From Abditibacterium sp. (GTDB lineage Bacteria; Armatimonadota; Abditibacteriia; Abditibacteriales; Abditibacteriaceae): a DNA stretch of 64,000 nucleotides. This document shows, piece by piece, positions 1 to 64,000 of the stretch. Numbering within the stretch: position 1 is the first letter of the stretch; every line of letters starts with the position of its first letter. The stretch lies in the NCBI GenBank assembly GCA_965199495.1, contig CBDASK010000003.1, forward strand, positions 4,416,001 to 4,480,000, written 5' to 3'. Position numbers: made by a program.

Positions 1-3000
1 AGGGACTGGCTCAAGCCATCGTGGCGTGGTGCTGGAAAATATGGGGCAAGGGCGATTTGCAGCACGCCCTACTCGATCAGTCGCCGCCGTGGCTGCAAAG
101 CACGCTGGAGCATATCCGCGAAAATCCTACGATTTCGGTTCACGATTTAGCGAGCGTCGCGGGTTTTAGTCCGGCTCATTTTCGCCGTTTGTTCCACCTC
201 AATATGGGCCAGTCGCCGCGCGACTATCTGCAACACCAACGCCTCGAACTCGCCAGAAAGCTGCTCGAAACTACCGCCCTGCCCGTTTCTGCTATCGCAA
301 CCCAGACCGGATTCGCCAGCGTGTCGCACTTCACGCAAAAATGGAAAACCGCGCACGGCTCGCCGCCTCATCAATACAGAGTGTCGCGTCAGAAACATGA
401 AAACCGTAATTTCTAAAAAGATGAGCGAAAACCACTGTTTTTTGAGCTTTCTTCGTTAAATAGCGCGTTTGAAACAGCAGGAATACGGGAATACTTAATA
501 GCGTCATTTGAAAGCGAGGGGAGTTGTACAGTGGAAGATGAATTCCAAGTGTTGCGTAGTCCCAAGCGATTTAGTCATGAGATGAACCGACGGCAACAAG
601 TCTCTAAAAAAATGGCGAAATGTTTGAATTCCTCAACAACTGGGTAGACTATTTAAGAATGGAGTTAACGTTAGCTCAGACGAATATTCCTTTGCCGTGC
701 GAGGCTGATTTACGGAAAATTCTGTGCTTGAGAAAGCAAAACTAAAGGGGTAAGCAAGGTGACTATACGCGTTATAATCAACGATTCTGCGGCTTAGGCC
801 AACAATCCGGCAGGCAGCCACGAAGATGAGAATATATTTCTCGTCCTCTGTTGGAGAGATATGTCATTCGGAAGAGATCCGACAAGCGAGAGACTTTCGC
901 TGCGCTTTCGGTGTATCTTTCCCTCTTTACTTCTTAGTTGTTCAGTCGGTAAGTCTTTTTCCGCACGATTGAAACCGAATCTATTGAAAAACCATGAAAA
1001 ATTTTATGGCTCTTACGTGCGTCGGCCTTGCCGTTTTGTTCCACACGTCGTTGGCGCACAGCAAAACACTGAATGCGGTTAGCGACTACAAGGCCGACAG
1101 CACGGGGAAAACATATGCCACGGCGAACATTCAAAACGCCATTGATGCGTGCAATCCCGGCGATACGTTGCTGATACCTGACGGGACATACCTGATGAAT
1201 AGTGGTTTGGATTTAAAATCCGACATGACAGTCATCCTGTCAAAAAACGCTCTGGTTCAGGCGAATACTGTGAACGTTTGGTTGAAAAATGGAAGTCCGT
1301 TGTTTTCTGCAAACAACTTGAAGAATGTCACGATTACGGGCGGCGGAACAATTGACGGCGGCGGACTGGTTTACCCCAGAGGAAAATACTCCCTGCCCAG
1401 ACCCGGAAACGGCATTCGGTTTAACAATTGTTCCGACATGACGATTCGCAATGTGACGGTGCGAAACATTCCCGGCTTTTCCGTTGATTACGTTAATTCG
1501 ACCAATATCACGGCGGATTCCGTTACTATCCGAGGGCGGGGCTTCTTCAACCTGAAAGGATCGTCCGATGGTATGGATATAGAAGGCAGTTCGCACGTTA
1601 CGATCACGAACTGCAACATCGAAGTTGGCGATGATGCGCTTTGTATCAAGTCCAACGACATCGAGCATCCCTGCCATGACATTAGGGCGCGCCACTGCAC
1701 GTTGGCTTCCACTTGCAACGCTTTTAAAATAGGCACCAACACAAACGGCGAGGTTTATAACATTGTGGCTGACGGCGTAATCGTCAACAAACACTCGAAT
1801 CCGGGCACGGGTAATCCGGTGCCGACGGGCGATTGTATCGCCGCCATTGCTTTAGAAAGCAACGACCACAATCGCGTCCACGATGTGGTTTGCCGGAACT
1901 TTACCATCAACAGTTGCTATTGTCCGGTTTTCATTGAATTACAAAACCGGCAGTCGAGAGAGAAAGGCGATATCGGCCAGTTGGACACGATTTTAATCGA
2001 AAACGTCAACTGCCTGAAATCGGTGGCTCAACCGATCATCTTTAACTGGCAGACCGGCGAGCCGAACCAAATAAAGAACGTAACACTCAACAATGTCACC
2101 GTCCACAACTATGGAAAAGACATGGGTTCTAACCTCACTCCAATGGACGGTGGCTACCCAGACGCCAATCATAACGGAATCGCCAACGCCTACGGCATCT
2201 GGGCGCGCGGCGTGGAGGGATTGACGTTGAAAAATTGCAAGTTCACTGATGACGGCGGAAGCCAACGGGAAAAATTTGTCTTCCAAAACGTAAATGCGAG
2301 CGCGATTGGCAAATGAATGAGGCGCAATGTTACGAAGCCTCACCCCAGCCACGCCGCCAGAGTGCGGCCAAAATTGAATCATGAAAAACATCAAACATAG
2401 CTTTCTTCTCGGTCTCCTACTAACGCTTCCTTCCCCCATGCTTTTTGCGCAACAGAACGCCGACGCCACCAAAACAGCCACGCCGTGCATGAATGTTCTG
2501 GGCCGCTTCACCGCACCCGATGTGCCCGCGATGGGGCCAGCCGAAGCCGAAGCGCCGATTGGCGGTTGGACGAATGGCATTACGCCGGATAATCTGCCCG
2601 GCAAAGGGTTAGGGCAACACTCGATGCTTTATGTGGGCGAGAACTACAACAAAATGTTTTTGGTTCACGACGGCAAAGTGATTTGGACGTATTCGACCGG
2701 CAAGGGCTACGAATACGACGATGTGTGGATGCTTTCCAACGGCAACATCTTGTTCACGCGGATGCAATACATTGCGGAGATTACGCCAGATAAAAAAGTC
2801 GTCTGGCGCTACGACTGCAATAACACGCCCGGCGCCACTCACACCGAAATTCATACCTGCCAGCCGCTGGGTTTGGACAGAGTAATGTTCGTCGAAAACG
2901 GCGTGCCGCCGCGCTTAAAAATCATCAACATCAAAACCGGCGCCGTCGAAGTTGACCACGAAATTCCGTTCGGCCCCGCCGGTCAACCCATCGATCCCAA

Positions 3001-63000: not shown

Positions 63001-64000
63001 GTCGCTTTGCGCGACTTTTCGATGGTGATCGCGATGATCCTCATCTGCGGCTTTTTCGCGTTTTCGTCTCCGGCGTTTTTGAGCGCGCGCAACCTGTCCA
63101 ACCTCACCGTCGAACTTTCGATTACGGCGATTCTGTCGTTGGGAATGCTGCTCATCATTTTGCCGGGCTATATAGATCTTTCCATTGGCAGCGGCGTGGG
63201 GCTTCTGGGCGGCATCTCCGCCGTTTTGTTGTTCCAACACGACTGGCCCGCACCGCTCGCCATGTTGGTTTCGATCTTCGCTGGCATCGCCATCTGGTTC
63301 GGCATGGGCGCGCTCATCGTGACCCAACGCATTCCAGCGTTTATCATCACGCTCGCGGGCTTGCTGGTTTTCAAGGGCTTGCACTGGAAAGTCATCCAGA
63401 ACGCGACGATTCCGGTCACACGCGGCGGCGTGGACAACTTGTATTCGTCGCTGACGACGTGGTATTTGCCGCCGATTTGGAGCGCTCTGCTGGGCGTGGC
63501 TGTGTTCGCCATTATGGTCGTGGGCTCGCTCAAAGCGCGCCAGCGCCGCGAGCATTACAACTTGACCGTTGATTCCAATGAAGTCACGTTTTCGCGTTTG
63601 CTGGTGACGGGCCAACTGATCGCGCTGTTTGTTTTGGTCTGCAACAATTATCAGGGCATTCCGCTTTCGGCGCTCATTTTGGCGGCGGCGAGCGTGGCGA
63701 CCTGGGTTTTGACCCAGCACACACGCTTTGGCCGCTATCTCTATGCCATCGGCGGCAACGAGGAAGCCGCGCACGTTTCGGGCATTCCCGTCGCCAAAGT
63801 CGTGATTTGCACCTTCGCGATTATGGGTTTCATTACCGCGCTGGGCGGCTTCATGCAAACCGCTTATGCGGGCGCTTCGACGACGACGACGGGCGCCCTG
63901 CTGGAACTCGATGCCATCGCCGCGTGCGTTATTGGCGGCACCAGTCTCAAGGGCGGGCGCGGCAATGTCGTGGGCGTTTTGTTCGGCTCGCTGATTATGG

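What a model noticed while it worked through the whole genome (the two positions that open the first line are those of the whole stretch)
1..64000. DUF1559 pseudopilin genes head SusC/D-less carbohydrate loci and share a dedicated promoter motif
Polysaccharide-use loci here are built as sugar regulator + DUF1559 prepilin + CAZymes, with no TonB receptor or SusD; a 150-kb CAZyme island holds 10 such pilin genes. These loci share one promoter-like motif, ATGTTTRAAA-N11-TGGGTATAAT, which suggests a pilin-based glycan capture system under common control.
Evidence so far: 48 DUF1559/H-X9-DG genes; 19 have a CAZyme within two genes (background 11%), 13 a LacI/GntR/AraC regulator (background 3%); 11 of 24 such regulators are directly next to a pilin. 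Island: 86 genes, 10 pilins, 0 TonB/Sus; only 3 TonB receptors in the genome, none in these loci. Motif scan: 36 sites genome-wide, 20 pilin genes within two genes downstream, most others CAZymes or their regulators. Motif present 24 times in G003 and 8 in G019; pilin within 1.5 kb at 21 of 33 sites read. DUF1559 next to Peripla_BP_3 regulators in 25 of 28 order genomes and 1251 of 3996 genomes with both. Papers: no hit for DUF1559 + polysaccharide utilization or prepilin + PUL; four DUF1559 listings on Planctomyce The finding spans contig positions 4352000 to 4500000; this window holds only 4416001 to 4480000 of it. [...]
(Added by a program. Inside this text positions count along the whole contig: contig position 4,416,001 is position 1 of the stretch shown here. 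"Call 12" and the like, gene names such as g00115 and contig names such as C1 are that model's own, and its searches are not shown. The text may have been shortened before it was handed on; [...] marks where a part breaks off. The agent that wrote the report below was given it as the finding of a first reader that could run no searches.)

Follow-up and report, generated by a model that had tools for sequence, protein, structure and literature searches.

The report
Pilin-headed sugar loci under SigB-type promoters
In this family of soil and surface bacteria, many polysaccharide-digesting gene clusters begin with a variable pilin gene instead of the usual outer-membrane importer, and they share a promoter of the kind read elsewhere by a stress sigma factor, which hints at an undescribed way to capture and regulate complex sugars.

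Summary
Observation confirmed. The genome (Abditibacteriaceae) has 49 DUF1559 prepilins, no SusD and 3 TonB receptors. Seven pilins lie in the window among pectin, rhamnose and mannan CAZymes with LacI/AraC regulators. The motif is GTTTRA-N14-GGGTATAAT with strict spacing (36 intergenic sites versus 1-4 at other spacers). It matches the published SigB consensus and differs from the TTGACA-N17-TA.AAT promoters before rRNA/tRNA genes. A SigB/F/G-family sigma in an rsbV-rsbW-sigB operon carries near-canonical recognition residues and is the likely reader. Targets are pilins and carbohydrate genes (28 of 35 sites here; 38 of 42 in G003), often with LacI-like operators just downstream. The motif is multi-copy only in this family, and its count tracks LacI count (rho 0.80). 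A confident model shows a type IV pilin fold with long variable loops. No conventional short major pilin was found, although PilB/C/D/M, three PilT and secretins exist. Best reading: a SigB-plus-LacI gate induces substrate-specific pilins that capture glycans on a retractile filament. Glycan binding, uptake and the sigma assignment are untested, and 18 of 49 pilins have no carbohydrate link. Pilins in glycan loci have precedents in Verrucomicrobiota; I found none for the SigB link.

The parts
467..495 (+). SigB-type promoter (GGGAAT variant), in a 92%-identical duplicate of the AraC+promoter block at 12985-14020; no pilin follows this copy
622..650 (+). SigB-type promoter before the GH28 operon; TAACGTTA-type operator candidate near 665
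994..10058 (+). GH28, two beta-propeller proteins, two unknown secreted proteins, GH28
10326..12596 (-). GH92 alpha-mannosidase
12949..13941 (+). AraC regulator
13992..14020 (+). SigB-type promoter (GGGAAT variant)
14052..14870 (+). DUF1559 prepilin heading MFS - GH2 - GH28 - LacI - LacI
15015..21337 (+). MFS transporter, GH2, GH28
21359..23569 (+). Two LacI repressors; ATACCGGTAT operator candidate at about 22477-22491
23742..23770 (+). SigB-type promoter, TAACGTTA-type operator candidate from 23774
23827..24642 (+). DUF1559 prepilin heading GH97 and a SASA esterase
24694..28614 (+). GH97, SASA carbohydrate esterase
29725..33471 (-). GH106 alpha-L-rhamnosidase
33790..34527 (-). DUF1559 prepilin without the motif, divergent from AraC
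34750..35721 (+). AraC regulator
35974..41635 (-). GH2 (CBM32) and SASA esterase
41674..41702 (-). SigB-type promoter; TGCCCCGGCG-NN-GGGGCA operator candidate at about 41649-41666
41797..44263 (-). GDSL-CBM96 esterase and aldo-keto reductase
44517..45305 (-). DUF1559 prepilin; AlphaFold2 model pLDDT 89, type IV pilin fold
45403..45431 (-). SigB-type promoter (perfect consensus); TGCCCCGGCG-type operator candidate at about 45379-45396
45526..46569 (+). LacI repressor divergent from the pilin
46641..49499 (-). GH127 beta-L-arabinofuranosidase
49535..50296 (-). DUF1559 prepilin heading GH127
50317..50345 (-).
50415..51266 (+). AraC regulator
51350..52561 (-). MalK/MsmX-type ABC ATPase
52546..55569 (+). 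GH31
55915..55943 (+). SigB-type promoter; ATACCGGTAT operator candidate from about 55951
56011..56820 (+). DUF1559 prepilin, alone in its unit
56883..58580 (-). GDSL-CBM32 esterase
58870..58898 (+). SigB-type promoter; ATACCGGTAT copies at about 58668 and 58832
58974..59768 (+). DUF1559 prepilin
59842..59870 (+). SigB-type promoter; ATACCGGTAT operator candidate at about 59873-59888
59918..64000 (+). Monosaccharide ABC transporter (binding protein, ATPase, permease running off the window)

Best explanation
These are PUL-like carbohydrate loci with two unusual features. (1) Control (sequence shown, sigma inferred): a GTTTRA-N14-GGGTATAAT promoter is read by the SigB/F/G-family sigma of the rsbV-rsbW-sigB operon (G000:C3:2889327-2891368), not by the housekeeping sigma. 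A LacI/GntR repressor on an operator just downstream adds substrate specificity. Together they would make an AND gate (global, probably carbon- or energy-starvation signal via partner switching, plus sugar inducer), a role that CRP or CcpA fills elsewhere (recalled). (2) Capture (inferred): the first gene of many units is a DUF1559 prepilin with an invariant assembly helix and variable surface loops. PilD processes it and the genome's single PilB/PilC/PilM/PilT machine polymerises it into a retractile filament through a secretin. The induced pilin binds its cognate glycan, and retraction brings the glycan to the cell or into the periplasm, where signal-peptide-bearing CAZymes cut it and MFS/ABC carriers import monomers. 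My odds by step: SigB-family promoter 0.8; read by this sigma 0.65; pilins are subunits of that machine 0.8; they bind glycan in a substrate-specific way 0.5; they pull it through the secretin 0.3.
For: Spacing: GTTT-N16-GGGTA gives 36 intergenic sites, other spacers 1-4. B. subtilis SigB consensus GTTTAA-N15(+/-2)-GGGTAT, N14 optimal (PMC9847131 passages; PMC8346170 passages). rRNA, tRNA, groES and cspA promoters are TTGACA-N17-TA.AAT, and none of 49 pilins has such a site within 330 bp. The sigma passes TIGR02980 (244.6 vs 234.35), is flanked by RsbW- and STAS-type genes, and its regions 2.4/4.2 nearly equal those of PDB 8x6g_H; four SpoIIE phosphatases exist. Targets: 20 pilin + 8 carbohydrate of 35 sites; in G003, 28 pilin + 10 carbohydrate of 42. 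Motif count vs LacI count rho 0.80 over 28 genomes, 0.89 in the genus; TonB receptors 0-7 and uncorrelated (kin not independent). Shared operator sequences link distant loci. Mannan-locus pilin orthologs keep motif + LacI + pilin in 5 of 5 genomes, in 2 of 5 with no enzyme beside them. Model pLDDT 89, top folds are type IV pilins. PilB-PilT-PilC-PilD operon contains DUF1559-like pilins; three PilT pass cut-off; PilM and four non-Tad secretins present. Only two other class III prepilins found, both in that operon. Precedent: alginate-induced operon with a pseudopilin of a 67-member family (PMC13274419); pilus-like MUL2 in glycan use (PMC13174399).
Against: 18 of 49 pilins have neither motif nor carbohydrate neighbours and 5 have the motif but no such neighbours. 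Beyond close orthologs, pilin similarity does not predict enzyme family: nearest relatives of the starch pilin sit by GH13, GH31, GH3, GH16/GH29 or nothing; those of the galactan pilin by ASPIC/UnbV, GH13 or GH127. The GH26 is beside 0 of 5 mannan-pilin orthologs. The sigB operon has no motif upstream, unlike B. subtilis PrsbV, and the sigma fails the Sigma_B equivalog cut-off. All four candidate sigmas are core in the order, and SigB is also present in G027, which has no exact site. The conserved TATAAT tail could let the housekeeping sigma co-read the promoter. The assembly and secretin operons are not under the motif. A GH2/GH51/ABC locus at C3:3.91-3.92 Mb has no pilin and no motif. Palindromes downstream of sites exceed shuffles (13 of 35 vs mean 4.0) but not the upstream flank (11 of 35). 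39 of 49 pilins have Ala, not Gly, at -1.
Confidence: 0.5

Rival explanations
1. The pilins are substrate-selecting pseudopilins of a type II secretion-like machine: each is co-induced to export or surface-display the locus's CAZymes, and does not bind glycan.
For: Most CAZymes carry apparent signal peptides (by eye); a second PilB/GspE-type ATPase lies downstream of a motif-bearing pilin; three tandem secretins score best as GspD; EpsG is the second fold hit; this reading was proposed for V. alginivorum (PMC13274419).
Against: The pilin travels with its LacI rather than with an enzyme: motif+LacI+pilin without any CAZyme in G006 and G012, GH26 elsewhere in G001, G003, G006. Stand-alone pilins share operators with distant loci. 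Three PilT retraction ATPases point to a retractile pilus.
Confidence: 0.2
2. The pilins are inducible adhesins or a surface-variation repertoire: they tether the cell to particles rich in the sugar, or vary the pilus against phage, while oligosaccharides enter by porins or other routes.
For: Huge diversity (224,530 clusters at E<=0.001); tandem arrays of 3 and 5 pilins without enzymes; 18 of 49 without carbohydrate link; MUL2 is read as attachment (PMC13174399).
Against: Pure antigenic variation does not explain first-gene position behind substrate-specific repressors, nor counts scaling with LacI while TonB receptors do not. This rival overlaps the best reading in the binding step and differs in uptake.
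Confidence: 0.2
3. The motif is not read by the rsbVW-linked sigma but by another factor: the second SigB-like sigma with a C-terminal extension (C3:3358904-3360382), the diverged RpoD paralog (C3:4551974-4553230), or the housekeeping sigma plus an activator bound at TGTTTRAA.
For: -10 is TATAAT preceded by GG, as in many housekeeping promoters here; a motif lies upstream of the unit that ends in the second SigB-like gene in G000 and G006; all candidates are core.
Against: GGG is near-invariant and spacing is rigid at the SigB value. The second SigB-like protein has a different region 4.2 (SVNY) and fails TIGR02980; its upstream motif was found in 1 of 20 relatives' loci. The RpoD paralog's recognition residues differ between G013 and genus g1, which share the motif, and are the same in G013 and G026, which differ.
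Confidence: 0.25
4. The association is a by-product of a few mobile cassettes duplicated into one island, with no functional link between pilin and glycan use.
For: 10 of 49 pilins lie in one 148-kb island with IS elements and duplicated blocks.
Against: Same architecture at scattered loci with coherent substrates (galactan, mannan, starch), at 38 of 42 sites in G003, and regulator/CAZyme neighbours also occur at pilins outside the family (Capsulimonas and other Armatimonadota contigs).
Confidence: 0.05

Closest known systems
Bacteroidota PULs (SusC/SusD)
   Same: Regulator + first substrate-linked surface gene + CAZymes, one locus per glycan
   Different: No SusD, TonB receptors few and elsewhere; a prepilin heads the unit; LacI/AraC plus a SigB-type promoter. 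PUL features are from my own knowledge.
SigB general-stress regulon (Bacillus, Staphylococcus, Streptomyces SigB homologues)
   Same: Promoter consensus and 14-bp spacer, rsbV-rsbW-sigB gene order, recognition residues, PP2C phosphatases
   Different: Targets are pilins, CAZymes and sugar regulators; no classical stress gene among the annotated targets; no autoregulatory promoter found; conserved AAT tail; LacI-like operators downstream.
Verruconatronum alginivorum alginate operon pseudopilin (PMC13274419)
   Same: Pseudopilin inside a substrate-induced CAZyme operon; 67 homologs in one genome
   Different: Other phylum; read as type II export; whether it is DUF1559 was not stated in the passages I read; no promoter analysis seen.
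Akkermansia MUL2 locus (PMC13174399)
   Same: Type IV-like pilus proposed for glycan attachment and uptake without SusC/D
   Different: One conserved machinery locus with one pilin-like gene, not dozens of variable pilins spread over CAZyme loci.
Type IVa pili / T2SS pseudopili (PilA4, EpsG)
   Same: Class III signal, N-terminal helix, pilin fold, PilB/C/D/M/T and secretins
   Different: About 250-aa heads with long variable loops and H-X9-DG hairpin; no short major pilin found; mostly Ala at -1.
DUF1559 / PF07596 of Planctomycetota
   Same: Same domain, multi-copy; earlier labelled solute-binding (PMC2754498, PMC4807772)
   Different: Described as apparently PVC-exclusive and of unknown function; here abundant in Armatimonadota, pilin-fold, tied to glycan regulons.

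Membership tests
SusC/SusD PUL | Tandem susC (TonB receptor) and susD genes in the locus | tested here: not met
   3 TonB receptors, none in the island; 0 SusD
SusC/SusD PUL | Co-located CAZymes and sugar-sensing regulator | tested here: met
SusC/SusD PUL | Co-induction by the cognate glycan | not testable with these tools
   no expression data
SigB/SigF/SigG-family promoter | -35 GTTTAA, -10 GGGTAT, 12-17 bp spacer (14 optimal) | tested here: met
   against consensus
SigB/SigF/SigG-family promoter | Cognate sigma present with anti-sigma and antagonist | tested here: met
   TIGR02980 over cut-off; RsbW-like (below equivalog cut-off) and STAS neighbours
SigB/SigF/SigG-family promoter | Transcription depends on that sigma; start site at expected distance | not testable with these tools
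   no RNA holder listed
Firmicute SigB general-stress regulon | Sigma meets the Sigma_B equivalog model | tested here: not met
   TIGR02941 177.6 vs 315
Firmicute SigB general-stress regulon | Autoregulatory promoter before rsbV | tested here: not met
   none in G000; flanks of relatives were only 1.5 kb and may not reach it
Firmicute SigB general-stress regulon | Classical stress genes as main targets | tested here: not met
   28 of 35 and 38 of 42 sites precede pilin or carbohydrate genes; one S1-domain gene has a site; my recalled-signature search found only one catalase, without a matching site, so coverage of stress genes is thin
Type IV pilin superfamily | Class III signal peptide with Glu5 and hydrophobic helix | tested here: met
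   PF07963, TIGR02532 over cut-off; Ala at -1 in 39 of 49
Type IV pilin superfamily | Pilin fold | tested here: met
   model pLDDT 89; top VIA rows are pilins, best Z 5.7, rmsd 3.2, 115 aligned; Foldseek E>=0.26; modest scores
Type IV pilin superfamily | Processing by PilD and polymerisation | not testable with these tools
   machinery genes present
T2SS major pseudopilin GspG | GspG family score | tested here: not met
   TIGR01710 30-38 bits vs 88.85
Glycan-binding protein | Known lectin/CBM fold or measured binding | tested here: inconclusive
   fold search was filled by pilins; loops not searched alone
LacI regulon | Palindromic operator near +1 shared among targets and before the regulator | tested here: inconclusive
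   shared operators found and above shuffles, but not above upstream flank; binding untested

The most novel reading that the evidence does not exclude
DUF1559 proteins are the missing substrate-binding subunits of a general, SusC/D-independent route for glycan import: interchangeable pilins on one retractile type IV filament reel polysaccharides through a secretin. In Abditibacteriaceae a SigB-family sigma has been rewired from general stress into the master switch for this foraging system. Given the family's size (224,530 clusters at E<=0.001), the same route could explain polysaccharide uptake in Planctomycetota, Verrucomicrobiota and Armatimonadota.
Probability: 0.3. Interest if true: 0.92.

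Novelty: new variant of a known kind. Interest (0 to 1): 0.76.

Why it matters
How diderm polysaccharide degraders without SusC/D move glycans across the outer membrane is an open question, and DUF1559 is one of the largest unexplained families in those phyla. Here single pilins are tied to single regulators and substrates (mannan, galactan, starch), which gives direct test pairs. A SigB-type promoter serving mainly carbohydrate loci would be an unexpected use of a stress sigma family, and the motif is a ready marker for finding such loci, and unannotated CAZymes, across Abditibacteriaceae.

Tried and rejected
Housekeeping-promoter reading: rejected. First structure run with 12 sequences: pLDDT 42.5, discarded. 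Complex prediction of the mannan pilin head with its GH26: no answer, no evidence either way. Presence/absence could not pick the sigma: all candidates are core. A Q-to-P change in SigB region 4.2 occurs only in G025/G026, where -35 shifts towards GTTA (about 6 of 30 G026 pilin regions score); one lineage event, and GTTA sites also occur in genus g1, so I give it little weight. Autoregulation of the second SigB-like sigma: motif in G000 and 1 of 20 relatives. In-genome pilin tree: only the quick tree finished, weakly resolved, not used for claims. Codon bias did not single out a major pilin. ESM Atlas: unnamed or T2SS-named clusters only. No lectin or CBM appeared in the fold searches; that is not evidence of absence. 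Pilin counts in relatives are capped at about 61, so the pilin correlation uses first-look candidate numbers as a proxy. Literature searches found no paper on DUF1559 pilins heading CAZyme loci in Armatimonadota or on a SigB carbohydrate regulon; subscription journals and supplements were not seen.
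Full report
Source and observation. Relatives of a window pilin at 74-77% identity come from Abditibacterium/Abditibacteriota records, so I treat the genome (4.8 Mb, 95% complete) as Abditibacteriaceae. The window holds seven DUF1559+N-methyl prepilins among GH28 x3, GH92, GH2 x2, GH97, GH106, GH127, GH31, esterases, an MFS, ABC genes, three LacI and four AraC genes. 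Genome-wide there are 47 PF07596 hits and 49 full prepilins by my own HMM and gene calls, three TonB receptors outside the island and no SusD. Of 49 pilins, 19 have a CAZyme-type gene within two genes, 13 a sugar-type regulator (background 2.6%) and 20 the motif; 18 have none of these links (labels). Two of the 19 rest on sulfatases and two on a convergent GH2. I did not reproduce the 11% background or the 1251/3996 count. Outside the island the loci are substrate-coherent: pilin + GH53 x3/GH2/GH30; LacI + pilin + GH26-CBM35 + AGE epimerase; GntR + pilin + GH13.

The motif is a SigB-type promoter. It occurs 7 times in the window against 0 in shuffles, 10 times with a relaxed pattern, and before 6 of the 7 window pilins. 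Its core GTTT-N16-GGGTA gives 36 intergenic sites, other spacers 1-4. Written GTTTRA-N14-GGGTAT(AAT), it equals the B. subtilis SigB consensus GTTTAA-N15(+/-2)-GGGTAT with 14 bp optimal (PMC9847131, passages; PMC8346170, passages). A separate class, TTG[AC]C[AGT]-N17-TA.A.T (43 intergenic), precedes rRNA and tRNA clusters, groES and cspA, and none of the 49 pilins. So the motif is not the housekeeping promoter.

Which sigma. Four non-ECF sigmas exist. A 295-aa protein without region 1.1 is 87-100% identical across the family and has canonical RpoD recognition residues; I take it as primary. An RpoD paralog with region 1.1 is diverged (57-64% in most of the genus). One sigma sits behind STAS and RsbW-like genes, passes TIGR02980 but not the Sigma_B equivalog, and its regions 2.4 and 4.2 nearly match PDB 8x6g_H (that this is a staphylococcal SigB is recalled). 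A second SigB-like sigma has a different region 4.2 and a 200-aa tail without Pfam hit. Four SpoIIE phosphatases could feed the partner switch. All four sigmas are core in the order, so occurrence cannot decide. The RpoD paralog's residues do not track the motif. Against the assignment: no motif before rsbV, and the TATAAT tail could admit the primary sigma.

Regulon content. In G000, 35 sites precede 20 pilin units, 8 other carbohydrate units (one weak) and 7 others. In G003 I read 40 of the 42 sites plus 2 GTTA sites: 28 have a pilin in the first three ORFs (27 in the first two), 10 precede LacI/GntR or CAZymes, and 4 are other or unknown. The G003 pattern required the TATA[AC]T tail and may miss looser sites; a looser scan of G000 gave 60 sites at spacer 16 against 27-45 at others, the additions being mostly unrelated genes. 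The motif is in 24 of 28 order genomes (1-70 copies; controls 0-1), and a wider pattern is in 19 of 20 family genomes but at control level (0-2) in 279 genomes of other families and classes, apart from G177 with 3. G021 carries a variant -10 and G026 a variant -35. Motif count follows LacI count (rho 0.80, 28 genomes; 0.80 per Mb), while TonB receptors stay at 0-7 and do not; kin are not independent. Operator-like sequences recur after the promoter: TGCCCCGGCG-NN-GGGGCA at 3 sites; ATACCGGTAT at about ten places, including a LacI gene, GH92, two window pilins, the ABC operon and a stand-alone pilin 2.6 Mb away. A generic palindrome test beat shuffles (13 of 35 vs 4.0) but not the upstream flank (11 of 35). 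All six pilins directly next to a LacI/GntR repressor gene have the motif; of five next to AraC/XylR, two have weaker variants and three none.

What the pilins are. The first 56 residues are almost invariant; the rest is 30-40% identical among paralogs around conserved Cys, Tyr and the H-X9-DG hairpin. With 138 sequences the model reaches pLDDT 89, pTM 0.87; the best folds are PilA4 (Z 5.7, rmsd 3.2, 115 aligned), EpsG and other pilins, modest scores but one consistent class. The genome has pilB-pilT-pilC-pilD followed by DUF1559-like and minor pilins, a pilM-to-secretin operon, a second PilB/GspE, three PilT over cut-off, four non-Tad secretins and two Tad secretins. My scan for class III signals found only two non-DUF1559 prepilins, both long and in the assembly operon; if that holds, DUF1559 proteins are the bulk subunits. 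The assembly operons are not under the motif.

Does pilin track substrate? Partly. Orthologs of the mannan-locus pilin (47-60% in the variable part) keep motif + LacI + pilin in 5 of 5 genomes, the epimerase in 2 and the GH26 in 0; two stand with LacI alone, and full-length GH26 lies elsewhere in three. The closest starch-pilin ortholog keeps GntR + GH13; more distant ones sit by GH31, GH3, GH16/GH29 or nothing. Galactan-pilin relatives at 36-47% sit by ASPIC/UnbV, GH13 or GH127 (20 loci picked from the top hits). So the unit is repressor + pilin, which fits recognition of the sugar better than of an enzyme, but the link fades below about 55% identity.

Mechanism. Shown: architecture, promoter class, candidate operators, fold class, machinery. 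Inferred: SigB activation by carbon or energy limitation (by analogy, recalled), LacI release by sugar, assembly of the induced pilin, glycan binding by its loops, retraction toward or through a secretin, periplasmic hydrolysis (most CAZymes show signal-peptide-like N-termini by eye) and MFS/ABC import. I put the whole at 0.5; export adaptor and adhesion-only readings at 0.2 each; a different sigma at 0.25.

Prior art. PMC13274419 (passages and first part of section 17) reports an alginate-induced operon containing a PulG-like pseudopilin with 67 homologs, read as type II export. PMC13174399 (whole text) describes the pilus-like MUL2 locus in glycan use; the Akkermansia genetics it cites I did not read. 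PMC11131199, PMC11958385 and PMC11685898 (passages) treat uptake in Planctomycetota as unresolved. Four papers name DUF1559; three read in passages call it unknown or solute-binding, the fourth I saw only as a listing. Searches for Abditibacterium+pilin, Armatimonad+pilin+glycoside hydrolase and SigB+polysaccharide utilization+LacI gave nothing relevant. Supplements and subscription papers were not seen and may hold related proteomic data.

Verdict. A real, family-wide regulatory and genomic pattern: a new variant of the PUL theme in which variable pilins take the lead position, under a SigB-type promoter. The capture mechanism is plausible and testable but unproven. Interest 0.76.

Noticed in passing
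G000:C3:1593243-1594130 (L070:5243-6130): The apparent primary sigma lacks region 1.1 and is 87-100% conserved in the family, while the RpoD-like gene with region 1.1 (C3:4551974-4553230) is diverged in regions 2.4 and 4.2; three small secretin-like genes follow the primary sigma in G000.
   Followed up: partly
G000:C3:3354815-3362551 (L031): Motif-preceded run FecR - second SecY - AI-2E - SigB-like sigma with 200-aa tail - DUF6785/6784. The sigma is core in the order; the FecR-SecY part was seen only in G000, G006, G012.
   Followed up: partly
L031, L037, L042, L278, L291: DUF6785+DUF6784 membrane proteins recur in or near sugar loci (arabinose operon, GH76/GH125 locus, directly after a LacI-pilin pair in G003): candidate inner-membrane oligosaccharide transporter.
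   Followed up: no
L096, L098, L103, L305, L308: Recurrent cassette pilin + TPR protein + ASPIC/UnbV FG-GAP proteins, under the motif in G003; function unknown.
   Followed up: no
window 1-500 and 12981-14025: 92%-identical duplicate of an AraC gene with its downstream promoter; only the second copy is followed by a pilin.
   Followed up: partly
G000:C3:931419-936789 (L066): Three secretin genes in tandem, away from other pilus genes.
   Followed up: no
G000:C3:2965445-2968400 and 2782109-2784608: Tandem arrays of five and three short DUF1559 pilins; the first array has the motif 7 bp before the start codon (possibly leaderless).
   Followed up: no
G000:C3:2422324-2440337 (L074, L285): Sulfatase locus with two XylR-type regulators, each followed by a pilin, without the motif.
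   Followed up: partly
G000:C3, e.g. 102870, 242510, 761195, 1865535, 2608275: Dispersed repeat of about 45 bp (GTTTTAGACATCCGCCC...GTGTCTCTAC) in at least a dozen intergenic places; REP-like by appearance.
   Followed up: no
G013: 70 motif sites, 32 LacI, several hundred DUF1559 candidates and no TonB receptor hit in a 92%-complete 5-Mb genome: the extreme case.
   Followed up: no
L043:2334-7910: Class II ribonucleotide reductase with intein and LAGLIDADG domains.
   Followed up: no
window 2381-8441: Two beta-propeller proteins and two proteins without Pfam hit inside the GH28 operon: candidate new pectin-active proteins.
   Followed up: no
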